64,000 nucleotides of DNA from a virus. Its lineage: Duplodnaviria > Heunggongvirae > Uroviricota > Caudoviricetes. The stretch is taken from IMG/VR virus record IMGVR_UViG_3300028833_000069. One strand, 5' to 3'. Position 1 is the stretch's first letter. Each line of letters starts with the position of its first letter. Below, piece after piece: positions 1,085 to 48,745 of the stretch. Under the pieces are notes generated by a model. The model did no database searches, was not told where the DNA came from, and was given only the letters and a program-made list of their open reading frames with translations. The position numbers and the translations under genes were made by a program.

Positions 1085-3382
1085 TCAATCCTTTTTGGGA
1101 ACTTGCAACAGTAGAGCATTTCTACTAAACCACGAACCTGCTCTTCTAAACTGTTCATTTCTTTGTATAACTTGTTGTTTAGGAATTTTTCCAAAATGTT
1201 TATATCCATACTCATCAGTATACCAACCTATTTCTTCTTGTGAAGCTTGTGGAACAGATTGTTGTATAGTTTTACCTATCATATCCTCATTTGCAAGCAG
1301 ACACATACCTAAACCAGCTACCATATCAAATTTTCTCTTATTTGCATAAGAATATCTTAGTAACTCATTTAGTAATTCAGGAAATTCTATATACTCACAG
1401 TAGTCTGTAATATAATCATTTATGAGGTCTAACTGATGATTAATAATATCATCTGTAGCAGGAGTACCATACTGATTAGGATTTGCTTTTCTAATAGTTG
1501 GCATTGTTGCTCTAGGTCTTTTTAAAAGCAAATCTGCACATTTCTTTTCTTTAAAATATGTAACAAGACTTATTTTAGTTGCTTCTATTAACCCTTTACA
1601 GTTATACATTCTCATCAGCTTAATAGCATTGTCAAATGCAATTCTAATATCTTTTGGTCTTTCCTTGTAAATTGCTACAGGTTTTGGTGGGGTTATACCC
1701 ATCATTCTTTTAAAGATAATAATACAAAACTCTGAAACATCAGATTGTCCAGATGATGTAGATGTATCATTATCAATAGAGTCTATACCAGCAACATATA
1801 AATTAGAAGGAACTAAACCATTTGAATCTTTTACAGGAAGCTCTACTATTTTGATTTTACTTCTAGAATCATATTCAAACTCAGGAACAGAAAATCTATC
1901 AACCAAATGTGGATCATCCTTCATTGGTCTAAATCTTAAAGTAATTCCTTGAGGAGGTTCAAATAATTTATGAATTTCAATATTAGCTAACTATGTAGAA
2001 AGTCTTTCTTTATCAAATTTATTCTCACCTTCAAGAATAAGAGCTTCTTCAGGAGTAAAGCAGTACTCTGCTTTATACATCATTAAATCTTTAGGATCGT
2101 TAATAAGAAGAGCTCTTCTATCCATATAGTATTTTTTAGCTCTTTCTTCATCAACTACACCTCTGTTATCATAGCCTATTTCTCCTTTATCTTGCTCACC
2201 AAACCACATTGTATAAGCAGGTATAAAATATCCTGTATAGGCTACTTCTTGTGCTTCATTATATCTATTTTTATAAGGAAGAACTTTATATTTTACAGGA
2301 TTATAAAACATTCTGGTGAGGCCTTCCAAGTTAGGGCCAGAGTCACCACCAGTTCCCCAAGCATATCTGATACCAAATTTAATACCATTGATTTCAGTCA
2401 AAGCTTCTCCCTTAATCCATGAAGCAATAAGGTGTTTATTAGAACCTGCTTCTTCAAACAGAAGCTTATCAGTTCTATCACCTCTGACTTTATCTGGCAC
2501 ATCTGCTACTTTACCTTCAATTTCTGACATCCACCCAGATTCATTTCTTTCCTCATCTAAAACAGATGCTCTCTTGAAGTTAGCAGTATCAATCACCATT
2601 CTTTGGTGAGCAAACATTCCTTTTGTATGAGTATTAAGGAAGTTTAATTGTGTCCACATTTTATCTGTCAACTTGTCCACAAAGAAATCATTTGGGGCAG
2701 TTGCCATAACTCTAGTATTTTCAAAAGCTGTATATAAATTAACAGATATTGATGCAGAAATCTCACTAGCACCGACTCCTCTGCTCTTAAAAGCAACTAC
2801 ATCCTTTTTTAATTTAGCAGCTAATTCCATATAATGGAAATACTCATACTACTTTGCTATAAATGTTGGAAATGTTTCATTTCTACCAGTAGCAGCACCT
2901 TTAATACCAACAACACTTTTCATTCTGTAATAGTTTAACCAGAAGTAATTGTCACCAGTAATATGATACTTACCAACAGTCATTCCATTCATACATCTAT
3001 CAAGTTCTCTATAGCAAAGATCTGCAAACATTACAGTACCAGGTATAAGAGAAGTATATTCACCTGTCTCTTCATAAGTCCTAGCCATTTCTGTAAAGTC
3101 ATCAGGATTAAAATCTAATCCTTTATCTTTTGTAATAGGTCTGTAGCCAGTTAATTCATAAGATAATTCAGGATCAAAATATTCAATAGGATCTCCTATC
3201 TTTACATCCCATTCACTATCTTCTTCTTGCTTTTCTTCAAGAACAATCTATTCTTCTTTATCTTCTTGGGGGATGTCCATAATAAATGTTCTTTTCTTAG
3301 TCTTCTTAGCATCAAGAGCAGCCGCCTCTTTAGACAGCTGCTCCTTTAATGCTTCTCTTTCTTCTTTAGAAAGTTTAGCCAT
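1085..3382 (-). CDS. terL: terminase large subunit (one reading frame with three in-frame TAG codons)
   Basis: Track ORFs 2849..3088, 1991..2830 and 1085..1924 are in one frame, each separated only by TAG (at 3248-3250, 2849-2851, 1991-1993). Manual translation extends the frame to the ATG at 3380-3382. An ATPase-like KSRGVGAS / LLFEEAG motif and a nuclease-like VAGIDSIDNDTSTSSG Asp motif are present. The frame ends on TGA. Confidence 0.7.
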
Positions 3383-3969
3383 TATTTCTTATCAAAGAAT
3401 CCTGGAGTTCTACCCCCTCTTAATCCAGTAGATTCTGCTTGCTCTGTTTTAAACTTTTCTTCTGCTTCTCTTTTAGCATCAAATAACTTAGGTAACTTAA
3501 TATAATCATCCATAATATCTTTAGATGTTGTTAAAAACTTACCAGTTACTTCATCCCTTTCAGAAAGGTCTAAATTCCTATATCTAGCGGTTAGTTTATG
3601 AACAGCATCATTCATAGCAGCTAAAAGAGGACCAAATAAAGAAGAGCTATCCTGTAGTTGATTATACCTATCAAAAGCAGCTTTAAACACAGGATCTTGT
3701 AATTCCTCTTTAGTTATACCAGTAGAAGCTACTGCCATATCATGTCTTTCTTGAGGAGTACTTTTATTTCCTGGAGCTAACCAATCAACTGCAAGATATA
3801 TATAAGTTAATTCTCTATATGCTTTAAGTCTTTTTTTACCAGTAGGATCTTCTTTACACTTATTTCTATCTACATCCCATAAATCTTTGAACTCTTTTAC
3901 TAATAAGATTTCAGGTTCATTAAGAGTTAAGGCATTGGACTTATTATCATAAACAAAAAACTTAACCAT
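3382..3969 (-). CDS. hypothetical protein, possibly terminase small subunit by position
   Basis: 195-aa ORF immediately upstream of terL, with a TAATG stop/start overlap. There is no motif support. Confidence 0.3.
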   Translation of the reverse strand: MVKFFVYDNKSNALTLNEPEILLVKEFKDLWDVDRNKCKEDPTGKKRLKAYRELTYIYLAVDWLAPGNKSTPQERHDMAVASTGITKEELQDPVFKAAFDRYNQLQDSSSLFGPLLAAMNDAVHKLTARYRNLDLSERDEVTGKFLTTSKDIMDDYIKLPKLFDAKREAEEKFKTEQAESTGLRGGRTPGFFDKK

Positions 3970-4642: not shown

Positions 4643-4978
4643 TTATACATTTGGATTGTTATCAACTAATAAGAGGTTTTGCTCTGCAACAACCATATAT
4701 CCTGATTCAAAGAATACTGGTCTTGCACCTCTTATATCAAATAAAACATTGTCACCTTTATGAACAACCTCACATTTATTACCAACTGCTATAACTTTAC
4801 CCCACTTAAATGGTTGCTCTTTATAATCTAATTGGCCACTGTCAGGATTTTCAAATTCACCACCTGTTATTTCAAACTCATCAGCAGCAGCTTTTTTCTC
4901 ATAAGGATTGAATTCATAAGGGTCTACTAACAAATTAGTAAACACTGGTATAAAATTGTCTGTCATATCATTAAGCAT
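4643..4978 (-). CDS. GroES-like co-chaperonin
   Basis: 111 aa. The segment GKVIAVGN..VHKGDNVLF..YMVVAEQNLL resembles the GroES mobile-loop and roof region. It is adjacent to the GroEL-like gene. Confidence 0.5.
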   Translation of the reverse strand: MLNDMTDNFIPVFTNLLVDPYEFNPYEKKAAADEFEITGGEFENPDSGQLDYKEQPFKWGKVIAVGNKCEVVHKGDNVLFDIRGARPVFFESGYMVVAEQNLLLVDNNPNV

Positions 4979-6431
4979 TTAAAATTAAACAAGAACATGT
5001 TAAAATAATAGAAGCTGTATTAACAGCATTCTCTAAAGAAGTTTTTACAACTTCATATGGGTCTATTACACCTTCTTCATATAAATCACCAACCCATTCT
5101 CTAGTTTTAAAATTATATCCTGACCAGTTCATTGAAGCTGGAAGTAATTTACATTCTCCCGCACCAAAACAGTTTCTATATAATATATAATAAGGAGTAG
5201 TAAGTACATCCTTTAAATATTTTAATTCAGTACTTAATGCAATAGATGCTCTAAACAAAGCAGAGCCACCACCTGGAAGTACACCACCTCTTAAAGCAGC
5301 TCTTGTAGCACCAACAGCATCTTCTACTCTGTCTAATCTTTCTTTAACTTCTATTTCAGAATATCCTCCAACATAAATAGTCGCAATACCTGCTGTAAAA
5401 TTAGCAAGTCTTTTTCTCTGAAATTCTAAATCAGCTTCTTCAAGATTTCCTTTTTCTAAAAGTCCTTGGATAGCATTTACTTTTTCAGTAATAGCTTCCT
5501 CATTACTTTTATATCCAACAAAAGTACAAGTATCAGCAGTAGCAATTACTTTATCACAATAAAGTGTTTCTCCAAGAATATCTTTAATATCAGAAAGCAG
5601 AATACTTCTCTGAATACCAAAGTTAGGTGCTACTACCATACAAGAATCTAATTTATGTAAGTTATTTAAAAGATTTATTTTTATCTCAGAGTCAAAATCA
5701 GGAGCAATTAGCAACAGAGCCTTTTTCTTTCTGAGAGCTTCATTAGCTACCTCAGCAACTTTAGTTATCTCACTAATCTTTACATCTGAGATGTATACCA
5801 TTACATTTTGAAGTACACATGTATTCTCAGCAGTATTTACAAATCTTGAATCAAAATAACCATTGTCAAATTGAAAGCCTTCTGAAAATTCAATACCATC
5901 TGAGTTTGTCTTAGATTTCTCAAATTTAACAATCCCATTCTTACCTACTTTCTTGAAAGCATCTGCTACAAGTGTACCAATTTTAATATCATTATTGGCT
6001 GAAAGAGTTGCTACCTTAACAAGGTCTTTTTCAGTAATATCTCTTTTATATTCTTTCAACCAATTAACCACTTTTTCACAATCTTCTTGTAAATCTCTTT
6101 GGATTTGAATAGGATTTTCCCTACTATCTGCAAGAAGCTTTACAATTTCCCTAGAAAGAATAGTAGCAGTAGTACTACCATCACCAACATCACTAGATGT
6201 TTTCCTAGAAATATCTCTCACTGCATCAATACCCATTTGTACATAAGGGTCTTCATGAGTTACATAAGTAGCTACTGTACTACCATCTTTAGTGACATGT
6301 AAATGTCTACCAAGTTTAATCATTACATTCCTACCACTTGGTCCATAAGTAGCAGCTACACAATCAGAAACAAGATTAACACCTTTAATCAAGTTCTTTT
6401 TACATTCATCATTAAATTGTACATGTTCCAT
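4971..6431 (-). CDS. GroEL-like chaperonin (Cpn60 family)
   Basis: 486 aa. GDGSTTATIL matches the GroEL GDGTTTATVL ATP-binding motif. TYGPSGRNVMI and LPGGG segments are also present. Confidence 0.75.
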   Translation of the reverse strand: MEHVQFNDECKKNLIKGVNLVSDCVAATYGPSGRNVMIKLGRHLHVTKDGSTVATYVTHEDPYVQMGIDAVRDISRKTSSDVGDGSTTATILSREIVKLLADSRENPIQIQRDLQEDCEKVVNWLKEYKRDITEKDLVKVATLSANNDIKIGTLVADAFKKVGKNGIVKFEKSKTNSDGIEFSEGFQFDNGYFDSRFVNTAENTCVLQNVMVYISDVKISEITKVAEVANEALRKKKALLLIAPDFDSEIKINLLNNLHKLDSCMVVAPNFGIQRSILLSDIKDILGETLYCDKVIATADTCTFVGYKSNEEAITEKVNAIQGLLEKGNLEEADLEFQRKRLANFTAGIATIYVGGYSEIEVKERLDRVEDAVGATRAALRGGVLPGGGSALFRASIALSTELKYLKDVLTTPYYILYRNCFGAGECKLLPASMNWSGYNFKTREWVGDLYEEGVIDPYEVVKTSLENAVNTASIILTCSCLILNA

Positions 6432-14866: not shown

Positions 14867-14882
14867 ATCTATTATAATTTAG

Positions 14883-14972
14883 TAGCCCCTGAGGGACTCG
14901 AACCCTCACAACCTCCAACAGAAGGATATAACAGTTTTAGAGACTGGTGTACTGCCATTATACTAAGGGGCA
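14883..14972 (-). tRNA. suppressor tRNA with anticodon CUA (reads UAG), class II with long variable arm
   Basis: Anticodon stem CAGT/ACTG with a 7-nt loop CTCTAAA (U33, CUA at 34-36, A37). The anticodon is complementary to plus 14938-14940 tag. D-arm GTAT-AATGGCA-GTAC. Variable arm of about 23 nt with a CCTTC/GGAGG stem. T-arm GAGGG-TTCGAGT-CCCTC. Acceptor GCCCCT/AGGGGC with a 1:72 mismatch. Confidence 0.6.
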
Positions 14973-17977: not shown

Positions 17978-18284
17978 ACAACAAAAAATTTTTGCAAAAT
18001 TACAACAAAAAGTATTAAATAAAAAGACAAAACTATAAAAAATAAAATAAACACTTCATTGGTAAATGAGACTACTAATTTCATTTTTAGTAAAAGAAGC
18101 ACAAGTAGTCCTTACACATGTGTGTGCACATGTATATATAATAAGGTGTAAGATTGTACAAGATTCAAAATTGTATATATAGGCTAGATGTACAAAGTGT
18201 ATGGTAATCGGCCCCCTCCCCTCAACGGAGGAAAACCCAAAACTGAATCCTCTTTTGATTTTACAAACCAAAACACAAACCATT

Positions 18285-18575
18285 ATGATACTCATTGGAC
18301 ATCACATTGGTCAGTGCATCATCTGCTCTGACAACAGCAACACTTACTTTGTTGCAAAACCAGGTCAACCTTTTGACCTTGCTGAACATCGTGCTTGCTT
18401 AGCACATGTGGCACAATTAGAAATTTTGGAAGGCAACTTCACTGCTTACAAGGCATTGAAGAAACTTCCACACATTGTTCATCTCCAGCAAGAGCAATAT
18501 GCTTTATTGGAGAGAGCAGCAGAGACTCACAACTCTGACATCTTTGGGGCTATGGCAGATATGCTTCTGCCTTAG
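18285..18575 (+). CDS. hypothetical protein in GC-rich island
   Basis: ATG at 18285. Local GC is about 45-47% versus about 33% in flanks, with GC3-rich codons. Confidence 0.35.
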   Translation: MILIGHHIGQCIICSDNSNTYFVAKPGQPFDLAEHRACLAHVAQLEILEGNFTAYKALKKLPHIVHLQQEQYALLERAAETHNSDIFGAMADMLLP

Positions 18576-18688
18576 TCTCTGAGCCTATGCTTCCTTGATT
18601 GGGGGCATAGGCACTTATTTATTTAGTTAACTGAACAGTGTCCGCATTGGGCTGTTCTAATTATTTACCTTTTAAACTAGTTTTTGAT

Positions 18689-19246
18689 ATGAAATTAGAT
18701 GAATTCAAAGCCAGTGAGAGCAAACTTGCTCAGTTAGGCTTTAAAGTTGACGACGGTTCCAAGAACCTGAACCAGGCATTTATGCCTCAGTCTTTTGCAG
18801 AGGGTGACATCATTGAGTCTCTTGATACTGCATTGGTTTCCAATGAGGTAGAGATTGCAGGTGAGAAGCGCACTGTAATTGGTGTAGCCTGCAAGATTAC
18901 CAACAAGGCAGGTGTCAGCAGAACTCAGGTTGTTGCATACAACACTCTGACAGGCTCTCTGATTATGGAGAAGAATGCTCTGACCACTGCTCCTCGCAAG
19001 CCTCGCTTTGCTGCACTGTTTGGTGCTCAATTTGAGGAGGTAAGGAATGAGAAGGGTGAACTGTTGGGCCGTGCATTCCCATTCCCCTTCAAGGTCAAGA
19101 TTGATCAGGAGGTTGATGCATTCAACACTGTCTTCCAGGATGGCAGCACAATCTTTGAGGATGAGAATGGTGCAAAGCACTATCGCACCACAGAGGAGCC
19201 TGCTAAGAAAGGCATTTCTACAGGTGCTAATCTGATTCGTCGCTAA
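18689..19246 (+). CDS. hypothetical protein in GC-rich island
   Basis: 185 aa from MKLDEFKASESKL. Codon usage is atypical for this genome. Hairpin terminators follow at 18590-18620 and 19250-19300. Confidence 0.4.
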   Translation: MKLDEFKASESKLAQLGFKVDDGSKNLNQAFMPQSFAEGDIIESLDTALVSNEVEIAGEKRTVIGVACKITNKAGVSRTQVVAYNTLTGSLIMEKNALTTAPRKPRFAALFGAQFEEVRNEKGELLGRAFPFPFKVKIDQEVDAFNTVFQDGSTIFEDENGAKHYRTTEEPAKKGISTGANLIRR

Positions 19247-20039
19247 TGAGGCAGACCAGGACTGTAAAGGCATACCACCATAGTGGCTGTGCCTTTACTC
19301 TCCTTCCTCAACTTCCTTTTGGTGTAAAATCAAGTATTATTCCAATTCTTGGACAGACATCTGAGATATTGGGAGTACAGCCATACATAATCCCAACCTT
19401 ATTAGACAACAGGTATTACTACTTGTTGATAAGAGATAACATTGTTAAGCAGGCAATGCTTTGCACTGAAGAAGAGGAAGGGGGGATTATAGGGGGGAAA
19501 GTATAACAGGAAAGGGATTAAATATAAATATATTATAATACTCTTTCTTTGTTAGATAGAGGTGTGGAGGAAGATTTATTTCTTTCTCAGGGCACTTTCT
19601 GGTTTAATCTGAGCAGTTAACCAGACCTGTTAACAAGTACTGTTAAACAGGCTATAAATAAGCTTTAAAGGTATTCTGAGAAACTACTTGAAATGTACAC
19701 TGTTAGTGATGAACTAATAAGGAGATGTAATGGCAGAATACTAGCCTAGGAGTCATTGGTTTGGCTACTAGGTACAATTAGGTTAAGTGATGTGATTGTT
19801 CATGGCGCGGTTTATTAGGAGTGTACTGCTTGTGAAAGTAGTACCTCCACCTTCTTTTTGGGTTACAGACATTGGTAATGGATTGAGCTAGTTGGCACTT
19901 CATTTTAAGATTTTGATGCTCATTTGATAATGAGACTTCTAAATTAGTTTTTAATAATCTGGCTTTTTTAGAGGTATAAAAAGTATTAATTTTGCAGTGT
20001 TTTAGGTACAAATATATACATTAACAGGCTGACATAAAA

Positions 20040-24187: not shown

Positions 24188-24698
24188 CATAATTTTGATT
24201 GTTGCAAGTTTTGTATGTGCTGTTGTATTTATTGCTTCTGATCCTATTTGTGTAGGTGACGTTATTGGTATTCCTAAGGTAGAACATGATGTTACTTACA
24301 TGGGATATAGTGGTAAATATACAACACTTACATACACTTACAAAAACAAAGAAGGAATTGTTTTTAATAAATGTGAGAGATTTATTGATGAGGAAGCTTT
24401 TGAAAGTTCAATTCATGCCCAAAGAATTTTATCACAAGGAAAAGTATATGGAGAAACTTGGTATAGTGTTCTTGCTAAAGTAATTATTTGTGTTATTTGG
24501 ATAGCTTGGGTAATTATAACAATTTGTACTTGGTCTTGTTATGGAGAAGATTTTAAATATAATGATCCTCCAGATAAGTATAATTGTTTTAAATATTGTG
24601 CTGTTCATAACATATGTCTTTTACTGAACAATGGCAATTATCCACAAACAAGTGAATTCTTTGGTTATGAGAAAGTTTCAGATACTATACAAAGCTGA
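24171..24698 (+). CDS. membrane protein
   Basis: Two TM segments. Confidence 0.4.
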   Translation: MKHFLNIILIVASFVCAVVFIASDPICVGDVIGIPKVEHDVTYMGYSGKYTTLTYTYKNKEGIVFNKCERFIDEEAFESSIHAQRILSQGKVYGETWYSVLAKVIICVIWIAWVIITICTWSCYGEDFKYNDPPDKYNCFKYCAVHNICLLLNNGNYPQTSEFFGYEKVSDTIQS

Positions 24699-24821
24699 TA
24701 ATGATAGACTTAAAACAGATGTTGTAATCCTTAAAGAAGGTGAGAAAGCCAATAAGGAAACATTTGATAAACATTTAGGTCTGTTATATGGTTATACTCT
24801 CTGCTGGTCCCAAATTGAGTA

Positions 24822-26027
24822 AGGTTATGTGATTTCCTTAATCACTTCAAAGCTCAGTTTGGCAGTAGGGGTATAAAGAGGTGACACAAAGCCAATTCCT
24901 CTTACAGTTGGGAGCTCTAAGAACTCCACAAAGTGCAGTTTCGAGCGGAGTGCACATAAACAGGTGAATCTCTATTCCTGTTATCCAGTCTTATTTTTAC
25001 TGGCCTAGGTGGATTGGACTCCCACCTAGGTTTCAATGTAATGTGAATTGCAATAAACATTACAGGAGAGGTTGCAAACTCTCATTGGTATGTAGTATAA
25101 GGGAGTACTCTGCTGGGCCACTTTATTAGGTGACTCGGCGGGAGCATAGGTTAGAACCCTATCATACTAACAATTAACAAATCCTGGTATGTCCCAGGTT
25201 ACATAGAGATGTTTACTAGTCAAACAAGGAATGAGCAATGCATGGCTATCCTTGTTATGAGGATGTTGGACTGGTAAAGCATTTCAACCTTACTATGTAT
25301 TAGTAACTAGGAGAGAATATTTGTAAGGGTTATTCTTGAAAACTGTTTGGGAACTGAAATTAGACAAGAGAGTCATACCAAACAAGAAAGTGAGTTTTAC
25401 TGCTTTTCTAGAGGGCAAGTTTAGATCTTTCTACTTTTTATTATATAATAGGTTGTCATGTGCAAGGTTACTTCAATAAATTAGCTCAGCGATAGAGCAA
25501 AAGTTTTTGGGTACTTTTGGTTGGGGGTTTGAATCCCTCATTTATTAAAATTAACCCTTGTACTCTTACTCCTATTATTTGGTTATGCTCCCTTGATTGG
25601 GAGTGTAACCTCTTTGTTCCACAAACAAGGAAGTGTAATAAGGCTATACCTACTTTCAAGACATATAGCTGCTTGTCACAGAGGGTGTGTGGAACTTTAC
25701 AATGAAACCGAGGAAGTGCTCTATTTAGCCTCTAGAGCCGAGGGTTGGGAAGGTCTGGGGATACTTGCTAAAAAGGTATGCTCCTTAAATTTGTAGGTTT
25801 CAGTAAAAACTCAGGACTTAATGGCAATTAACAGTCCTAAATTGTGTGGAATTGAATGCAAAGGACACACATCTATGCAGTTTGAGAGTATCTGCATTAT
25901 TACAGTTGAAAGACAACAACTATAAAAATCTATAAGGATATTGCAGAGTGACTACTAGATTAGTCAAGACTGTTATGAAGGCCAAGGTGGTGAAAATCCT
26001 CAATAATAGAGTCTTATATCCTTATTT
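24822..26027. ncRNA. candidate large structured noncoding RNA region (GC-richer, hairpin-dense, no credible ORF)
   Basis: About 1.2 kb with only two overlapping 60-aa track ORFs. It contains strong hairpins (CCTAGGTGG-ATTGGACTC-CCACCTAGG; GAGAG-GTTGCAAA-CTCTC) and an embedded degenerate tRNA-like sequence at 25474-25553. It abuts tRNA-Met. Confidence 0.3.
25451..25474 (+). repeat. conserved box GGTTGTCA-N8-GTTACTTC (copy 1), followed by a degenerate tRNA-like sequence
   Basis: GGTTGTCATGTGCAAGGTTACTTC, then AATAAAT-TA-GCTC-AGCGATA-GAGC...GGGGG-TTTGAAT-CCCTC-ATTTATT. No valid anticodon arm. Confidence 0.5.
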
Positions 26028-26103
26028 TCTCCATTAGCTCAGTTGGTCTAGTAGCAATACACTCATAATGTAGAGGTCCCTGGTTCAAGTCCAGGATGGA
26101 GAA
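26028..26103 (+). tRNA. tRNA-Met(CAU)
   Basis: Acceptor TCTCCAT/ATGGAGA, anticodon loop CTCATAA, T-arm CCTGG-TTCAAGT-CCAGG. Confidence 0.6.
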
Positions 26104-26182
26104 CTATCAACATAACAGAAACAAAGCTGAGATACTAATAGGGAAAAGTGATAAGGCTAACAGAAACATTGTTGATTTTACA

Positions 26183-26278
26183 GTGGCAGAGTGGAACGCA
26201 TAAGCTTGACTAAACCTCAAGCAAAAACCATCAGAGGCTCATAACCTCTGGATAGCAGGTTGGACTCCTGTTGCCGCA
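26183..26278 (+). ncRNA. tRNA-like element with CAU anticodon loop and a hairpin insertion replacing the D-arm
   Basis: Acceptor GTGGCAG/TTGCCGC pairs. Anticodon arm AGAGG-CTCATAA-CCTCT. T-arm CAGG-TTGGACT-CCTG. About 43 nt including the hairpin GCTTGA-CTAAACC-TCAAGC lie between acceptor and anticodon stem. Confidence 0.35.
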
Positions 26279-26311
26279 ACTAAAAACAAAACTAAAAATC
26301 TTAAACAACTT

Positions 26312-26569
26312 ATGAAAAAGAAGTATGATTTACATCAGCAATTCTTTGTAGTATTTGCTATAAATGAAAGGTCTGAAACATTTGAAACCTTTAAACTTGG
26401 AACTATTCAGAATCAAACATTAGGTTTGCATGATACAATTGAAAGTGCACCAAATAATGAACTTTCTGATGGAGAAGTAGCTCAAGCATTATCATCTTCA
26501 CTTGAAAGATGCTTTGGAGATAACTATCGGTATAAACTAATTTCATTGGTTAACTGGTATGCAATATAA
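26312..26569 (+). CDS. hypothetical protein
   Basis: Track ORF. Confidence 0.4.
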   Translation: MKKKYDLHQQFFVVFAINERSETFETFKLGTIQNQTLGLHDTIESAPNNELSDGEVAQALSSSLERCFGDNYRYKLISLVNWYAI

Positions 26570-38578: not shown

Positions 38579-39009
38579 AATCTCTATTTATTATTCCTAT
38601 ACAAAGTGTATCTGATATAATAACAAACAGCTCTTCTGAAATGTTTGTTGCTATTGCACCAAAAGATAGTAATTATAGTGTTTTTATCATTGAAAAAATT
38701 CTTGAAGATATTCATAAAGAAGATCGAAAGAAGGTTGAAGATTATTACAAGTCCTGTAATAATTGGCAACAGACATTAGATTACATGGATACTACTAGAC
38801 TTGATTCTGGAAGTGGAGATGGTGGGGAATGTGACATTGAGGTACTCACATGGAAAGAAATTTCTCATTATATTAGAAAATGTAATAGGTCTAAATATGA
38901 TAAAAAGAATGGAGTTTATCTTAAAATTGAAATAGATCATAATAGAAAAAGGTCTATTGATTGGATAAGAAATAACTTAGATGTTGTTTATTTTGAAGAT
39001 CATTCATAA
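38575..39009 (+). CDS. paralog family member 3 (IQSVSDIITNSSSEMFVA)
   Basis: The C-terminus shares NR..SI.WI with member 2. Confidence 0.5.
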   Translation: MKSLFIIPIQSVSDIITNSSSEMFVAIAPKDSNYSVFIIEKILEDIHKEDRKKVEDYYKSCNNWQQTLDYMDTTRLDSGSGDGGECDIEVLTWKEISHYIRKCNRSKYDKKNGVYLKIEIDHNRKRSIDWIRNNLDVVYFEDHS

Positions 39010-39893
39010 TGAAAGACTTTACTCATTTTGGTGTTAAGCAAAGGAAATTTCCAGAATATAACTATAATGCTATATGGACTAATTTGAAAACAATAAGGTT
39101 AGGTAACGGCTATGCAAAAGAGCTACCACCTAATTGTGCAGAATTCTATGATGTTTCATTAGGTACTAAGTGTAATCTGGAATGTCCTTTCTGTTATACT
39201 AACGCTCTACATACTGGGGAGTTCTATAAAGATGTTTGTGAAAAAGCTAAAAGATTTTTTGGAATGATGTCTAACAATCAAAAGCCATTTCAAATAGCTA
39301 TTGGTAGTCAGGGAGAACCTACTATTCATCCAGAATTTATTGCTTTTTTACAGACTATTTATGAACTTAGGATTGTGCCTAACTATACTACTAATGGTAT
39401 TACTTTAGCTTCTGGTAATAAAGAGTTATTAGATGCTACAGAGAAGTACTGTGGTGGTGTAGCAGTATCTGCAAATACTTGGAATCCTACTATTAACAAT
39501 ATTTGGAAACAGGCAGTGGAAAACTTGATGAAGATTGATATAAATATCAATTTACATTATGTTATTTCAGACAAAGAATCTGTTGATAGGTTTATTAGGG
39601 AGGTATATCCATATGCAGATAATATTTTGTACTTTGTATTACTTCCCTTGATGAATTCAGGAAGAAGTACAAGTAAATACACAGAGGATGCTTTTGAGTA
39701 TCTTCTTTCAAAAGATTTAGATTGGTCTAAAATTGCTTTTGGTGCTCATTTCTATGACTTACTTAAAAAGCAAGATAAACTTAAATGCTGGTTATACCCA
39801 CCTGAAAGTTTGTCAAAAAATCTAATTCTTGGTGATAAAATAACAATAACAAAGAGTTCTTTTCATAAAGAACCTATTTGGCAAGAAGAATGA
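39009..39893 (+). CDS. radical SAM protein
   Basis: CNLECPFC (C-x3-C-x2-C) cluster near the N-terminus. 294 aa. Confidence 0.55.
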   Translation: MKDFTHFGVKQRKFPEYNYNAIWTNLKTIRLGNGYAKELPPNCAEFYDVSLGTKCNLECPFCYTNALHTGEFYKDVCEKAKRFFGMMSNNQKPFQIAIGSQGEPTIHPEFIAFLQTIYELRIVPNYTTNGITLASGNKELLDATEKYCGGVAVSANTWNPTINNIWKQAVENLMKIDININLHYVISDKESVDRFIREVYPYADNILYFVLLPLMNSGRSTSKYTEDAFEYLLSKDLDWSKIAFGAHFYDLLKKQDKLKCWLYPPESLSKNLILGDKITITKSSFHKEPIWQEE

Positions 39894-40717
39894 AATATAA
39901 TTTTAAAGCAAAAGAAACTACTGAAGGTATTATTGCATTCATAAAAGCATGGTTTGATCAAAATGGACCAGGATGTAATGCAGTAGTTGGTATTTCTGGA
40001 GGTAAAGATTCTACTATTGTAGCAAAACTTTGTGTTGAAGCTCTTGGTAGTGACAGAGTTATAGGAGTAATGCTTCCTAATAATCATCAACATGATTTAG
40101 ATGTTGCTAAAGAAGTATGTCAGTATTTAGGTATTAAAAGCCATTTAATTGACATTGCAAGCACTTTTGAAGATGTTAGATGTAGTATTGAGGATGAGAC
40201 TAAAAAGTCACTCTCAGAACAAGCTCTGACTAATCTTGCACCTAGAATCAGAATGACTTATCTTAGAGCATATGCACAGTGTTTTAATGGTAGACTGATC
40301 AACACTTCTAATCTTAGTGAAGATTGGGTTGGTTATGCAACTGTTGATGGTGACAGTGCAGGAGATATGTCTCCATTGTGTTTACTTACTGTACAAGAGG
40401 TAAAAGCAATTGGACATTATCTTGGTATACCTGATAAGTTTGTAGAGAAAGTTCCTGAAGATGGTCTTGTTGGTAAATCTGATGAAGACAATCTTGGTGT
40501 AACTTATGCTGCAATAGATAAGTGGATTAGAGAAGGTATTTGTGATGAAAAAGATCTTCAAGTAATTAACAAGAAATTCCAAGCAAATAAATTCAAGATT
40601 GTAAAGATGGCAGGTATGCCATGTTTCTGGCCTGAATATGATATGCTTTTTGAAGGAACTCCTGATAAGGAATTTGTTTCAAAACTTGGAATGGCACAAG
40701 ATCCTAGATTACAATGA
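39878..40717 (+). CDS. nadE: NH3-dependent NAD+ synthetase
   Basis: PP-loop VVGISGGKDSTIVAKL, then TRMTYLRAYA...GTSN-like and GDMSPLCLLTVQEV segments as in NadE. Confidence 0.7.
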   Translation: MARRMKYNFKAKETTEGIIAFIKAWFDQNGPGCNAVVGISGGKDSTIVAKLCVEALGSDRVIGVMLPNNHQHDLDVAKEVCQYLGIKSHLIDIASTFEDVRCSIEDETKKSLSEQALTNLAPRIRMTYLRAYAQCFNGRLINTSNLSEDWVGYATVDGDSAGDMSPLCLLTVQEVKAIGHYLGIPDKFVEKVPEDGLVGKSDEDNLGVTYAAIDKWIREGICDEKDLQVINKKFQANKFKIVKMAGMPCFWPEYDMLFEGTPDKEFVSKLGMAQDPRLQ

Positions 40718-41259
40718 AAAAAGTTCTTATTATAATTGATTGCCAAAATGACTTCTGTAAAGAAGGTGGTGCTCTTGCAAATAAAGAATGTATTGGAGCA
40801 GTAGATAATCTTTGTAAAGATTTTAACAAAATCTGGGAAAAAGATATGACTGTTCTTGTTACAAGAGATACTCATCAAAGGAAATCTTATTTTGGAACTG
40901 TTGAAGGTAAACATTTACCAATTCTTCATTGTGTTCAAGATAGTGCAGGTTGGTGTTTAAGAGATGATCTTGCTGCTAAGCTTGATACACTTGGAGTTAA
41001 TTACACATATATTGACAAACCTACATTTGGATTTGATAGTTGGAAAGGTATTATTGGTGTTGTACCTTTTGACGGAATGGAAATTCATATTGTTGGAGTT
41101 TGTACTGATATTTGTGTAGTAACAAATGCTTTACTTTTGAAGACAGCATATCCTAGTGCAGAAGTATATGTACATACAGATTATACTGCTGGTACATCTA
41201 TTGAAGCACATACAGCTGCTATTAAGACAATGAAAAGTTGTCACATTAACTGTATATGA
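40714..41259 (+). CDS. pncA: nicotinamidase (isochorismatase family)
   Basis: LIIIDCQNDFC...GG, TRDTH and the catalytic Cys segment VGVCTDICV align with PncA. Confidence 0.65.
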   Translation: MKKVLIIIDCQNDFCKEGGALANKECIGAVDNLCKDFNKIWEKDMTVLVTRDTHQRKSYFGTVEGKHLPILHCVQDSAGWCLRDDLAAKLDTLGVNYTYIDKPTFGFDSWKGIIGVVPFDGMEIHIVGVCTDICVVTNALLLKTAYPSAEVYVHTDYTAGTSIEAHTAAIKTMKSCHINCI

Positions 41260-41450
41260 GTGATAAAGTAAATAATGGTTGCACAGTGAGCTTAACACCA
41301 TTTATGCTAATTTTCATTCTATTCTTTATAGCTAAATGCTTTAAGTTAATAGAATGGAGTTGGTGGTGGGTGTTTAGCCCATTGTGGATACCTACACTTA
41401 TTCTTCTTGTAATATTTATAGTTTACATACTATTAAAATGCTTTCTGTAA
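41256..41450 (+). CDS. small membrane protein
   Basis: 64-aa hydrophobic ORF. Confidence 0.3.
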   Translation: MSDKVNNGCTVSLTPFMLIFILFFIAKCFKLIEWSWWWVFSPLWIPTLILLVIFIVYILLKCFL

Positions 41451-42271
41451 ATAACATACCTGTAAAGGTTGAGCATTTCCAAGATAATACACAAAAAATT
41501 AACTTACCTGAATTTGAAAGTAATGTTTTCAATATTAAATGGAAATATTCAAATGATGAAGAGTTAGTTACACTTGTATATATTTGTGGTTATCTTAGAG
41601 ATAATTATCAAGATTGTACAATAACCTTGGAAATGTTATATGTTCCTAATGCCAGAATGGATAGAGTAGAAGAAAGAGGTGATGTATTTACCTTAAAGTA
41701 TTTCTGCAATATTATTAACAGTTTACAATTTGAAAGTGTAACAGTATTTGATACTCATTCAAAAGTAACTGATGCTCTGGTAGATAGGATGAACAAAATA
41801 TCTACTGAAGAACTATTACAAAAAGTACTTGACATTATACATGTTGGCTATTTTGATAATAAGTTTAAAAGTATGACTATAGTATTCCCTGATAGAGGTG
41901 CTTATGATAGATACAGTACTCTTGAAATTCTTAAACCTTTTAGAAAGATTATAGGAAATAAGTCAAGAGACTGGAAAACAGGCACTTTGCAAGATCAGGA
42001 GTTATATGGAGTAGATAATTTAGAAACAGGAGTTCCTGTACTAATTATTGATGACATATTATCTTCTGGTGGAACTGTTTGTAAAACAATTGCAAATATT
42101 AGGGAAGTTGTTAACTGCCCAATTTATGTATATGTTTCTCACTGTGAAAATAAGCTTATAGAAAATGATACAGAAAATTGGGAATACATACAGAAAAATG
42201 TAAATAAGTTATACACAACTAATGGGATTTACTCATGTGATTGTGAAAAAATTCAAAAAATTGTATGGTAA
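41438..42271 (+). CDS. PRPP-synthetase-like phosphoribosyltransferase (divergent Prs; alternatively an ADP-ribose pyrophosphokinase-like enzyme)
   Basis: YVPNARMDRVEERGD (compare Prs PYFGYARQDR), FDTHS (compare DLHA) and the PRPP-binding loop VLIIDDILSSGGT. The track ORF begins at 41384. Confidence 0.55.
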   Translation: MLSVNNIPVKVEHFQDNTQKINLPEFESNVFNIKWKYSNDEELVTLVYICGYLRDNYQDCTITLEMLYVPNARMDRVEERGDVFTLKYFCNIINSLQFESVTVFDTHSKVTDALVDRMNKISTEELLQKVLDIIHVGYFDNKFKSMTIVFPDRGAYDRYSTLEILKPFRKIIGNKSRDWKTGTLQDQELYGVDNLETGVPVLIIDDILSSGGTVCKTIANIREVVNCPIYVYVSHCENKLIENDTENWEYIQKNVNKLYTTNGIYSCDCEKIQKIVW

Positions 42272-43446
42272 ATGTAAATACTGCAAGTATGTTGGATAAT
42301 GATCTCTATAAGTTTAGCATGAGCTATGCTTATATGAAATTATTTCCAGAAGCAGAAGGTACATTTGAATTCTGTGATAGAAATAAAACAGTTTATACAA
42401 GTGAGTTTGTTCAAGCTCTTTCCTCAGAGCTGCATAAACTTGCTGAAAGAATGTTACTGTCAACAGAAAGAAGTTGGTGTGTTAAACACATACAGTATAT
42501 TCCTGAGTGGTATTGGGAATGGTTAGAATCTTTCTATTTCAATCCTAATCTTATTAAGGTCTCTCTTACTAAGGAAGGAATGTTGAATATAGCAGTAACT
42601 GATAAACTGTATAAGGTAACTTTGTATGAAGTACCAATTCTATACACAGTAGCAGAACTCTGCTATAAATTTTCTGGTACAGAATTGTCTCATGAGCAAT
42701 TCAAAGAGATAATTAGTAAGACAGAGAGTAAATGTAAGATTGCTGATGAAGCAGAAATGTTTTTCTCTGAATTTGGTACTAGAAGAAGATTCAGTTATGA
42801 AGTACAAGACATTGTAATTAAAACTTGTAAGAGTTGTTCTCACTGTGTTGGTACTTCTAATGTACATTTTGCAATGAAATATGACATGAAGCCTATTGGT
42901 ACTGTTGCACATGAGTGGGTTATGTTCCACGGTGCAATGTATGGCTACAATGAGGCTAATTACATGGCATATAAGAATTGGGTAAAGGTTTATGATGGTA
43001 ATCTTGGTATTGCCTTAACTGATACCTATACCTCTGATGTCTTTTTCAAGAATTTTTCTTTACAACATGCAAAATTGTTTGATGGTATAAGACAAGATTC
43101 TGGTGATGAAAAAGAATTTGTAGAGAAAGCTTTAGTAAAGTATAACGAGTTGGGAATCAATCCACTTACTAAAACTATTGTTTTCTCAAATGCTCTTGAT
43201 TTCCCAAAAGCTGCAACTATAGCAGAATACTGTAAAGGAAAGATAAAAGCTTCCTTTGGTATTGGTACAAATCTGACTAATGATATTGATGGTATAAAAC
43301 CACAAAATATTGTTATGAAACTTATGCAATGCAGAATGAACAACAAACAAAGTTGGATGCATTGTGTAAAAATTTCAGATGATAAAGGTAAGGTAATGGG
43401 AAATCCTGATGAAATTAAAACTGCCTTTTACAAATTAGGTCTATGA
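42265..43446 (+). CDS. pncB: nicotinate phosphoribosyltransferase
   Basis: Collinear with E. coli PncB: LDNDLYKFSM, FGTRRRFSYEVQD, VGTSN, GTVAHEW, LGIALTD, RQDSGDE, VFSNALD, SFGIGT, KPQNIVMKL. Confidence 0.75.
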   Translation: MVNVNTASMLDNDLYKFSMSYAYMKLFPEAEGTFEFCDRNKTVYTSEFVQALSSELHKLAERMLLSTERSWCVKHIQYIPEWYWEWLESFYFNPNLIKVSLTKEGMLNIAVTDKLYKVTLYEVPILYTVAELCYKFSGTELSHEQFKEIISKTESKCKIADEAEMFFSEFGTRRRFSYEVQDIVIKTCKSCSHCVGTSNVHFAMKYDMKPIGTVAHEWVMFHGAMYGYNEANYMAYKNWVKVYDGNLGIALTDTYTSDVFFKNFSLQHAKLFDGIRQDSGDEKEFVEKALVKYNELGINPLTKTIVFSNALDFPKAATIAEYCKGKIKASFGIGTNLTNDIDGIKPQNIVMKLMQCRMNNKQSWMHCVKISDDKGKVMGNPDEIKTAFYKLGL

Positions 43447-48652: not shown

Positions 48653-48728
48653 GACATCTTAGCTCAGTTGGTATTAGAGCACCTCACCTTTAATGAGGGG
48701 GTCCTGGGTTCAAATCCCAGAGGTGTCA
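48653..48728 (+). tRNA. tRNA-Lys(UUU) with unusual C at position 33
   Basis: Acceptor GACATCT/AGGTGTC, D-arm GCTC-AGTTGGTATTA-GAGC, perfect anticodon stem CCTCA/TGAGG, loop CCTTTAA, T-arm CTGGG-TTCAAAT-CCCAG. Confidence 0.55.
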
Positions 48729-48745
48729 CTAAAAATAAATATAAA

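What the first reader, a model, noticed from the sequence alone, without database searches (positions are those of the whole stretch)
24822..26027. 1.2-kb GC-richer, ORF-free, hairpin-dense block next to tRNA-Met: candidate large structured ncRNA
In a roughly one-third GC genome this region is visibly GC-richer. It has no credible ORF on either strand and contains multiple perfect 5-9 bp hairpins and a degenerate tRNA-like module. It abuts tRNA genes. Large ornate RNAs such as GOLLD and ROOL are characteristically phage-encoded and tRNA-adjacent. A group I or II intron remnant is another possibility.
Basis: partly seen in the sequence, partly recalled or inferred. Interest (0 to 1): 0.7.

Follow-up and report, generated by a model that had tools for sequence, protein, structure and literature searches.

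The report
Mosaic phage small-RNA and tRNA island
The 1.2-kb gene-free block is not one large RNA but a patchwork of separate small structured RNAs, tRNA look-alikes and real tRNA genes in a large uncultured phage, most matching no catalogued RNA family.

Summary
Window 24822-26027 is GC-richer (0.383 vs 0.319), has no credible ORF under any tested code, and has more perfect hairpins than its shuffles. The block contains structured RNA on the + strand, but it is not one GOLLD/ROOL-like RNA and not an intron remnant. Rfam 15 finds only tRNAs. Relatives show discrete cassettes that come and go independently:
- A (24823-25036)
- B (25037-25173), a tRNA-like cloverleaf behind two UUGCAA-loop hairpins
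- C (25174-25419)
- a canonical tRNA-Pro unit (25420-25621)
- D (25622-25898)
- a 28-nt unit-heading motif (25901-25929) followed by a ~100-nt Y-shaped RNA (25929-26028) abutting tRNA-Met

In one relative the flanking genes are 74-76% identical while A is 96.7% and C 90%. B is exactly absent there. Two other relatives carry a 110-aa ORF between B and C. B has 10 compensatory pairs against a distant copy. A embeds a divergent member of a three-stem sRNA family, which I call class X: 21 clear copies in relatives, 97% paired, 8 covarying pairs. Function is unknown. My best guess is independently expressed or processed small RNAs, some of them tRNA mimics. These are new RNA families of a known general kind. 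Interest is moderate.

The parts
24823..25036 (+). Cassette A: a structured RNA of about 190 nt. It comprises a 6-bp hairpin (24829-24845), a 56-nt core (24848-24903), a class-X-like three-stem unit, and a terminal 9-bp hairpin.
   Evidence: A is 96.7-98.1% identical in L059, L060 and L061, while flanking CDS in L061 are 74-76%. The 56-nt core is identical between the window and L007, whose 270-aa flank protein is 80% identical. All substitutions that fall in predicted stems keep pairing (G-U or compensatory), and 100% of cells are paired against 39-51% when slid. The close relatives alone give little covariation power: one double change, and 114/500 shuffles do as well.
24905..24988 (+). Divergent class X sRNA unit inside A. 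Layout: UUG-[stem a]-CAA, AG, stem b (GUGCA/UGCAC), stem c (ACAGG/CCUGU).
   Evidence: It is the best hit of the class X covariance model R3 in the window (20.7 bits, E 0.1). Homologous copies in L023 and L007 score 26.2 and 23.6 bits. RNAfold gives it the same three-hairpin architecture as family members. L059 carries a compensatory G-C to A-U change in stem a.
25004..25030 (+). Perfect 9-bp GC-rich hairpin CCUAGGUGG-AUUGGACUC-CCACCUAGG followed by UUUC. It probably marks the end of cassette A. Its loop resembles the T-loop (UUGGACU) of the odd tRNA(CAU) at 26182-26279.
   Evidence: The stem is conserved in L059, L060 and L061; L061 has one change in the loop. Cassette B is inserted or deleted immediately after it.
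25037..25173 (+). Cassette B (M3). It has hairpin 1 (25037-25064, loop GAAUUGCAAUAA), hairpin 2 (25066-25083, loop GUUGCAAA), and a tRNA-like cloverleaf (25086-25169). The cloverleaf has a 7-bp acceptor stem, a D-arm, a T-arm AUAGG-UUAGAAC-CCUAU, and a long closed rod in place of an anticodon arm.
   Evidence: B is exactly absent in L061, 98.5-100% identical in L059 and L060, and present in the distant L020 at 5548-5718. 38/38 pairs are kept in both copies, 10 with changes on both sides and 0-1 in slid controls. G-U pairs fix the strand as +. Its covariance model R2 picks up genuine tRNAs at low score. ARAGORN and the Rfam tRNA model do not call it.
25174..25419 (+). Cassette C: a conserved ORF-free segment with predicted stems and one hypervariable hairpin tip (about 25258-25282).
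   Evidence: C is 89-91% identical in L059, L060 and L061 against 74-76% for CDS in L061. Its indels of 1, 3 and 4 nt are not compatible with coding. Most substitutions keep the predicted pairs, but there is only one double change and several pairs break. Its status as a discrete RNA is the least certain.
25420..25621 (+). tRNA-Pro unit: a sigma-70-like promoter match (25420-25449), tRNA-Pro(UGG) at 25475-25547, and a 12-bp terminator-like hairpin (25581-25610).
   Evidence: ARAGORN and Rfam call the tRNA at 56.1 bits. The unit is 96-99.5% identical in L060 and L061.
25622..25898 (+). Cassette D: a 277-nt ORF-free optional segment lying between the tRNA-Pro terminator hairpin and the 28-nt motif.
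   Evidence: D is present in L060 (97.5% identical, with a 1-nt indel) and absent in L061. No distant homologue was found. Its folding z-score is -0.87. Its nature is unresolved.
25901..25929 (+). The window's single copy of a 28-nt unit-heading motif (consensus TATAGTTGAAGGAAAACAACTTTAAAAACC, hairpin GUUG/CAAC). It is promoter-like, or a 5' hairpin or processing signal.
   Evidence: There are 38 distinct copies in relatives, and in every locus they lie on one strand, the strand of that locus's tRNA genes. Each heads an ORF-free unit of about 100-170 nt or, occasionally, a protein gene. The position-weight-matrix score here is 29 bits; shuffles reach at most 17.5. In three copies G11 to A occurs together with C20 to U, which keeps the hairpin pair.
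25929..26028 (+). Cassette M5: a Y-shaped RNA of about 100 nt closed by a 10-bp stem (25932-25941 with 26016-25025 read as 26016-26025). It directly abuts the 5' end of tRNA-Met.
   Evidence: M5 is conserved in L006, L009, L016, L023 and L061. 98.6% of cells are paired against 34-50% when slid, and three helices each carry a compensatory pair. In L023 it lies about 570 nt from tRNA-Met, and in L009 it sits between other units, so it is an independent cassette. Model R1 finds only these copies.
26028..26104 (+). tRNA-Met(CAU). It lies outside the finding and bounds it.
   Evidence: 53.8 bits.
26182..26279 (+). Unusual tRNA(CAU) with a 20-nt hairpin inserted in the D-loop. It belongs to the same island.
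   Evidence: Rfam tRNA scores it 24.3 bits, below the threshold of 29. The cloverleaf has 8 covarying pairs across the window, L007, L023, L015 and L016. The insertion is absent in L016.

Best explanation
The block is a mosaic island of small RNA genes in a large, uncultured, tRNA-rich phage. It consists of several short, separately evolving cassettes on the + strand: structured sRNAs, a tRNA-like cloverleaf, and canonical tRNAs. It is not one large RNA.

Shown:
- the cassette boundaries
- presence and absence of cassettes in relatives
- sequence conservation well above that of the neighbouring genes
- compensatory pairing for cassette B, cassette M5 and the class X family

Inferred:
- Cassettes are expressed from their own starts (the 28-nt motif, or a sigma-70-like promoter) and stop at hairpins.
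- Where a tRNA or tRNA-like cloverleaf is present, host RNase P and RNase Z cut the transcript. That would release the flanking hairpins and M5 as discrete stable small RNAs.

Speculative, about 0.3: the products act in trans during infection as protein-binding or decoy RNAs aimed at tRNA-directed host factors. This fits a phage that also carries 24 tRNA genes and an RtcB RNA ligase.
For: 1. Only tRNAs match Rfam in this block. A canonical tRNA-Pro with promoter-like and terminator-like sites splits it.
2. The structure is a mosaic. L061 lacks B and D. L059 and L060 carry a 332-nt insertion with a 110-aa ORF between B and C. L060 and L006 have a different unit after the motif. L007 and L023 keep only the 5' part of A and the tRNA-Met end, with an 88-aa ORF and unrelated ORF-free sequence in between.
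3. Conservation is high. Against L061, CDS are 74-76% identical, A is 96.7%, C is 90% and the tRNA-Pro unit is 96%.
4. Covariation is present. B has 10 double changes and 100% pairing. M5 has 3 covarying helices. Class X, with 12 seed sequences, is 97.1% paired against 33-50% when slid, has 8 covarying pairs, and 0/500 shuffles reach the observed pairing, double-change-cell and covariation scores (2/500 for the count of covarying pairs). Model R3 gives 21 hits below E 1e-3, all on the + strand.
5. G-U pairs and the one-strand orientation of the motif copies, matching the tRNA genes, place everything on the + strand.
6. Relatives carry even longer ORF-free stretches packed with the same kinds of unit: L020 5103-6499 and 6885-8638, L011 1-1200, L023 3902-5470.
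Against: - There are no expression data, so RNA ends and stability are inferred.
- B rests on two divergent sequences and M5 on five.
- The class X hit in the window is marginal (20.7 bits, E 0.1).
- Cassettes C and D have no distant homologues and almost no covariation.
- Folding z-scores are weak (-0.9 to -2.0).
- High identity of A and C could partly reflect recent recombination rather than selection.
- The window has only one copy of the 28-nt motif, so how A, B, C and D are transcribed is open.
- A trans-acting or decoy role is conjecture.
Confidence: 0.68

Rival explanations
1. The cassettes are cis-acting leader, spacer and trailer elements of tRNA operons. In this reading they set transcription start, termination and processing of tRNA-Pro, tRNA-Met and tRNA(CAU), and have no trans function.
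For: M5 abuts tRNA-Met. Promoter-like and terminator-like sites flank tRNA-Pro. The units cluster with tRNA genes in all relatives.
Against: In L023 and L009, M5 is detached from any tRNA. Class X units form tandem arrays, each with its own motif and terminator-like stem, without tRNAs between them. B is optional, yet its structure is conserved at long evolutionary distance.
Confidence: 0.15
2. The block is decaying tRNA genes and recombination debris, an intergenic graveyard of a tRNA island with no function.
For: Several pieces look tRNA-derived. The 5' core of A resembles the D-arm region of tRNA-Met, the 25004-25030 hairpin has a T-loop-like loop, and B is a cloverleaf without an anticodon loop. 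Content also varies widely between relatives.
Against: The pieces are much more conserved than adjacent coding sequence. They also keep pairing through compensatory and G-U changes.
Confidence: 0.08
3. The block is a single large ornate structured RNA (GOLLD/ROOL-like) with optional domains.
For: It is GC-richer, ORF-free, phage-borne and adjacent to tRNAs.
Against: No Rfam hit at E up to 10. A complete tRNA gene with a terminator-like hairpin lies inside it. Protein genes are inserted between the parts in L059, L060, L007 and L023. No sub-block combination is conserved as a whole.
Confidence: 0.04
4. The block is a group I or group II intron remnant, or protein-coding under a recoded stop codon.
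For: The window holds a real group I intron at 34686-34926 and suppressor tRNAs with anticodons CUA and UUA.
Against: No intron model matches at E up to 10, although the positive control scores 87.7 bits. No split host gene flanks the block. Recoded frames reach at most 130 codons, overlap tRNA-Pro, and are broken by 1-nt indels in relatives.
Confidence: 0.02
5. The block is a DNA-level element, such as a replication origin or packaging site.
For: It is ORF-free and rich in hairpins.
Against: Cumulative GC skew rises without a turn across 20-31 kb. There are no iterons or tandem repeats. The pairing is strand-specific, with G-U pairs. Content varies between near-identical phages.
Confidence: 0.03

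Closest known systems
Small stable RNAs of the phage T4 tRNA gene cluster (species 1 and 2, also called RNA C and D). This comparison rests on my own knowledge and was not checked in a paper here.
   Same: Non-tRNA structured small RNAs encoded among phage tRNA genes on the same strand, presumably matured by the tRNA-processing enzymes.
   Different: There is no sequence or Rfam relationship. Here there are many more unit types, a dedicated 28-nt heading motif, multi-copy families, and cassette-like gain and loss.
tRNA-like plus hairpin chimeras such as the gammaherpesvirus MHV68 TMERs and MALAT1/mascRNA (own knowledge).
   Same: Cassette B joins a non-decoding tRNA-like cloverleaf to stem-loops. 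The cloverleaf could serve as an RNase P/Z handle that releases them.
   Different: The hairpins lie 5' of the cloverleaf, not 3'. The setting is bacterial and phage. No processing was shown.
Bacterial Y-RNA-like YrlA, a tRNA mimic often encoded near rtcB (own knowledge).
   Same: It is a tRNA-like module with D-arm and T-arm but no decoding function, and the same genome carries an RtcB ligase gene.
   Different: In YrlA the RNA ends lie at the anticodon-equivalent stem and the acceptor end is closed. Cassette B has the opposite topology. There was no Rfam match, and no Ro60/TROVE gene was seen among the proteins scanned.
GOLLD and ROOL large RNAs
   Same: Phage association and proximity to tRNA genes.
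   Different: There is no model match, no single conserved large unit, and the block is interrupted by a tRNA gene and, in relatives, by protein genes.
tRNA arrays of huge or jumbo phages.
   Same: The window has 24 tRNA genes, including suppressors, dispersed and clustered.
   Different: The finding concerns the non-tRNA structured cassettes between them, which ARAGORN and Rfam do not annotate here.

Membership tests
GOLLD / ROOL / HEARO large RNAs (Rfam models) | A significant covariance-model match to the family. | tested here: not met
   Rfam 15 was scanned at gathering threshold over the whole window and at E up to 10 over 24600-26400. No such family was listed.
GOLLD / ROOL large RNAs | One contiguous conserved RNA of several hundred nucleotides, kept as a unit in relatives. 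| tested here: not met
   Sub-blocks are present, absent or replaced independently, and a tRNA gene and protein ORFs interrupt the block.
Group I intron (RF00028) | A covariance-model match to the catalytic core, and a split host gene. | tested here: not met
   No hit in the block at E up to 10. The same search finds a true intron at 34686-34926 with 87.7 bits. No interrupted gene flanks the block.
tRNA (RF00005), for cassette B 25086-25169 | A cloverleaf with a 7-bp acceptor stem, a D-arm and a T-arm. | tested here: met
   The RNAalifold consensus has covarying acceptor and T stems. Model R2 cross-hits genuine tRNAs.
tRNA (RF00005), for cassette B 25086-25169 | A 5-bp anticodon stem with a 7-nt loop, and a score above the family threshold. 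| tested here: not met
   The arm is an 8-bp stem extended to a closed rod, with a different length in L020. ARAGORN does not call it and the Rfam tRNA model lists no hit at E up to 10.
tRNA (RF00005), for 25475-25547 | A score above threshold, and an anticodon. | tested here: met
   56.1 bits against a threshold of 29; anticodon UGG, proline.
Class X phage sRNA (family defined here, model R3) | Three stems in the order UUG-[a]-CAA, AG, [b], [c], followed by a U-rich tail. | tested here: met
   Window 24905-24988 folds on its own into the same three-hairpin layout. Stem a shows a compensatory change in L059.
Class X phage sRNA (model R3) | A significant covariance-model score, and the conserved stem-c sequence CCAAGAGAG...CUCUCAA. 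| tested here: inconclusive
   20.7 bits, E 0.1, the best hit in the window. Stem c is replaced by ACAGG...CCUGU. Homologous units in L023 and L007 score 26.2 and 23.6 bits.
YrlA / Y RNA | An Rfam match, an Ro60-binding helix formed by the RNA ends, and a partner Ro60 gene. | tested here: not met
   No Rfam hit. The topology is opposite. No TROVE domain was found among the 10 large proteins scanned. Not all window proteins were scanned.

The most novel reading that the evidence does not exclude
Large uncultured phages of this lineage carry shuffling islands of RNA-gene cassettes. The islands hold several undescribed families of structured small RNAs: class X, the M5 Y-shaped RNA, and a tRNA-like cloverleaf fused to two hairpins with self-complementary UUGCAA loops that could kiss. 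Each is driven or marked by a dedicated 28-nt motif. In this reading they act as tRNA mimics or decoys in the conflict with host tRNA-targeting or RNA-targeting defences, possibly together with the conserved neighbouring 270-aa protein, whose N-terminus shows only a weak small-beta-barrel (Sm-like) resemblance.
Probability: 0.2. Interest if true: 0.8.

Novelty: new variant of a known kind. Interest (0 to 1): 0.52.

Why it matters
Phage tRNA clusters are usually annotated as tRNAs plus intergenic spacers. Here the spacers are under stronger constraint than the neighbouring proteins and are built from several covarying RNA folds that match no Rfam family. That points to a reservoir of phage small RNAs, including non-decoding tRNA mimics, exchanged as cassettes among related large phages.

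It gives concrete, testable candidates for RNA-based host takeover or counter-defence:
- three covariance models
- exact cassette boundaries
- a 28-nt heading motif

It also warns that GC-rich ORF-free blocks next to tRNAs are not necessarily large ornate RNAs.

Tried and rejected
- Rfam at gathering and permissive thresholds on the window and on the relative L023 gave only tRNAs, the distant group I intron and noise.
- BLAST of the block and of a class X unit against 50,697 deposited phage genomes gave only tRNA-Met matches or nothing. A third query, from a different phage that carries the 28-nt hairpin (L019), also found nothing.
- An IMG/VR scan for the 56-nt core of A gave 0 hits. The core of B hit only L020.
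- The GTDB genome scan for the class X stem-c pattern gave one chance match in a Sulfurospirillum MAG, which model R3 did not confirm. My gap minimum of 5 also missed the short-loop members.
- Alternative genetic codes produced no credible ORF.
- Tandem or direct repeats within the block were only short chance-level matches.
- Thermodynamic stability of whole segments was not distinctive.
- Pfam, PHROGs and PADLOC gave nothing for the flanking proteins or the inserted ORFs, apart from a sub-threshold Phage_CI_C hit for the 110-aa ORF and a sub-threshold DUF5398 hit for the 63-aa ORF.
- Literature searches for the motif sequences and for phage tRNA-island small RNAs found nothing pertinent.

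Full report
**Setting**

The window is 31.9% GC and phage-like. It carries 24 tRNA genes, including two suppressor-type tRNAs, and a group I intron at 34686-34926. It also encodes a GroEL-like protein, NAD-salvage enzymes, a radical-SAM protein and an RtcB ligase. Identical copies of the region occur on a 168-kb ENA contig, a JGI contig and two Logan contigs. No deposited phage genome resembles the block apart from the tRNA-Met gene.

**Observation check**

- GC content. The block 24822-26027 is 38.3% GC. Only 34 of 628 same-length windows are as GC-rich.
- ORFs. It is the largest ORF-poor stretch in the window. With TAG, TGA or TAA read as sense, no credible frame appears. Close relatives differ by indels of 1, 3 and 4 nt, which argues against coding.
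- Hairpins. There are 13 perfect hairpins with stems of at least 6 bp, against 4.7 +/- 2.3 in dinucleotide shuffles. The rest of the window has a median of 8 per equal length, so the excess over the genome is modest. Global folding z-scores are weak.
- tRNAs. It has a sigma-70-like promoter match upstream and a 12-bp terminator-like hairpin downstream.

**Known families**

Rfam 15 finds nothing but tRNAs in the block. This holds at gathering thresholds and at E up to 10 with permissive filters. The same library detects the window's true group I intron at 87.7 bits. GOLLD, ROOL, HEARO and intron readings therefore fail the one membership test available here.

**Relatives and the mosaic**

I used the downstream 270-aa protein and the upstream 175-aa protein as anchors and fetched contigs from related phages.

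| Relative | What it keeps or changes |
|---|---|
| L007, L023 (270-aa flank protein 80% identical) | Keep only 24837-24968 and the tRNA-Met end. Between them lie an 88-aa ORF and more than 1.5 kb of unrelated ORF-free, hairpin-rich sequence. |
| L006 (flank protein 93% identical) | Diverges upstream of about 25860-25900. |
| L059, L060, L061 (closest relatives) | Define exact cassette boundaries. |

The cassette boundaries and their variation are as follows.

| Cassette | Coordinates | Variation in relatives |
|---|---|---|
| A | 24823-25036 | Present in L059, L060 and L061 |
| B | 25037-25173 | Exactly absent in L061 |
| (insertion) | at 25173/25174 | 332 nt with a 110-aa ORF in L059 and L060 |
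| C | 25174-25419 | Present in L059, L060 and L061 |
| tRNA-Pro unit | 25420-25621 | Present in L060 and L061 (the L059 contig ends before it) |
| D | 25622-25898 | Absent in L061 |
| 28-nt motif | 25901-25929 | Kept in L060 and L061 |
| M5 | 25929-26028 | Replaced by another unit in L060 and L006 |

Against L061, the adjacent coding sequences are 74-76% identical. Cassette A is 96.7%, C is 90% and the tRNA-Pro unit is 96%.

**Structure evidence, by cassette**

- Cassette B. Its only distant copy is L020 5548-5718. The two share two hairpins followed by a cloverleaf with a 7-bp acceptor stem, a D-arm and a T-arm. An 8-bp stem extended to a closed rod replaces the anticodon arm.
  - All 38 pairs hold in both sequences. 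Ten have changes on both sides, against 0-1 in slid controls.
  - Hairpin 1 changes 7 of its 8 pairs while keeping its loop GAAUUGCAAUAA. Hairpin 2 has the loop GUUGCAAA.
  - Both loops hold the self-complementary UUGCAA, so a loop-loop contact is possible. This is inference.
  - A covariance model of B cross-hits genuine tRNAs.
- Cassette M5. It is a three-way junction closed by a 10-bp stem, with one compensatory pair in each of three helices across five phages. In L023 and L009 it is not next to tRNA-Met.
- Cassette A. Every substitution that falls in a predicted stem keeps pairing, through G-U or compensatory change. The close relatives alone give little statistical power.
- Class X. Cassette A embeds a divergent member of a family I call class X. 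Its layout is UUG-[stem a]-CAA, AG, [stem b], CCAAGAGAG-loop-CUCUCAA, then a U-rich tail.
  - Twelve seed sequences are 97.1% paired against 33-50% when slid. Eight pairs covary, and 0/500 shuffles reach the observed pairing, double-change-cell and covariation scores; 2/500 reach the count of covarying pairs.
  - Model R3 finds 21 copies below E 1e-3, all on the + strand. It scores the L023 and L007 homologues of A at 26.2 and 23.6 bits.
  - Window 24905-24988 scores 20.7 bits (E 0.1), the best hit in the window. It folds into the same three hairpins.
- Cassettes C and D. Their evidence is weak, limited to conservation and indel pattern.

**The 28-nt motif**

The consensus is TATAGTTGAAGGAAAACAACTTTAAAAACC.

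- I found 38 distinct copies in relatives. In each locus they all lie on one strand, which is the strand of that locus's tRNA genes.
- Each copy heads an ORF-free unit of about 100-170 nt or, occasionally, a protein gene.
- The window has one copy, scoring 29 bits; shuffles reach at most 17.5.
- Three copies change G11 and C20 together, which keeps the GUUG/CAAC pair.
- Class X units end in a hairpin plus U-run directly before the next motif. The motif therefore most likely restarts transcription, although an RNA-level 5' hairpin or processing role is not excluded.

**Interpretation**

The evidence fits an island of small RNA genes that are gained, lost and exchanged as cassettes. It does not fit a single large RNA. 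The mechanism of biogenesis is inferred: own starts and stops, plus RNase P/Z cleavage at tRNA and tRNA-like elements. A trans-acting role as tRNA mimic or decoy is speculation, prompted by the tRNA-like folds and by the phage's heavy investment in tRNAs and an RtcB ligase.

The main rivals are cis-acting tRNA-operon spacers, tRNA debris, one large RNA, an intron or recoded ORF, and a DNA-level element. They are weighed in their own section.

**Novelty**

The kind of thing is known: non-tRNA small RNAs in phage tRNA clusters, and viral tRNA mimics. These families, the cassette behaviour and the heading motif match nothing in Rfam, in deposited phage genomes or in the literature I could search.

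Noticed in passing
window 26182-26279: A tRNA(CAU) scoring below the Rfam tRNA threshold (24.3 bits). It has a cloverleaf with 8 covarying pairs and a 20-nt hairpin inserted in the D-loop. The insertion itself covaries (GCUUGA/UCAAGC against GCUUAA/UUAGGC) and is absent from the L016 orthologue.
   Followed up: partly
window 14882-14972 (-), 48653-48729 (+), 1085-2830 (-): Two suppressor-type tRNAs, with anticodons CUA and UUA. Reading TAG as sense fuses the two adjacent 279-aa ORFs at 1085-1924 and 1991-2830 into a stop-free frame of 767 codons (1088-3388). This suggests TAG readthrough or recoding in at least one gene.
   Followed up: partly
window 34686-34926 (+): A full-length group I intron match (87.7 bits) with no evident + strand host ORF or tRNA around it.
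   Followed up: partly
[not shown]
   Followed up: partly
L010 3785-3809 (-), L019 2422-2446 and 2908-2932 (+): The same GUUG-AAGGAAAA-CAAC hairpin occurs in other viral contigs between a TTGACA/TATAAT promoter and the start codon, that is, in a 5' UTR. One copy has a compensatory GGUG/CACC stem. The hairpin may therefore act at the RNA level.
   Followed up: no
L059 2698-3030, L060 5167-5499: A 110-aa ORF is inserted exactly between cassettes B and C in two close relatives. Its only match is a sub-threshold one to the Phage_CI_C domain (E 0.0026).
   Followed up: partly
L020 5103-6499 and 6885-8638; L011 1-1200: Relatives carry ORF-free stretches of 1.2-1.75 kb packed with motif-headed units, class X copies and uncalled tRNA-like sequences, for example L011 about 228-296.
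   Followed up: partly
window about 18100-19500: This is the GC-richest stretch of the window (0.42-0.44), richer than the finding. It contains ORFs at 18201-18575 and 18638-19246, with a long antisense ORF overlapping the second.
   Followed up: no
window 25221, 25379, 25622, 25706: A short box, CAAACAAGGAA(GUG), recurs four times in cassettes C and D. At least three copies lie at or just before a predicted stem, which recalls the ACAAAG box of class X.
   Followed up: no
window 39878-43446: A cluster of NAD-salvage genes: NAD synthase, a phosphoribosyltransferase-like protein and NAPRTase. A radical-SAM protein lies upstream (39009-39893). A GroEL-like gene lies at 4971-6431 and RtcB at 35936-37204.
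   Followed up: no
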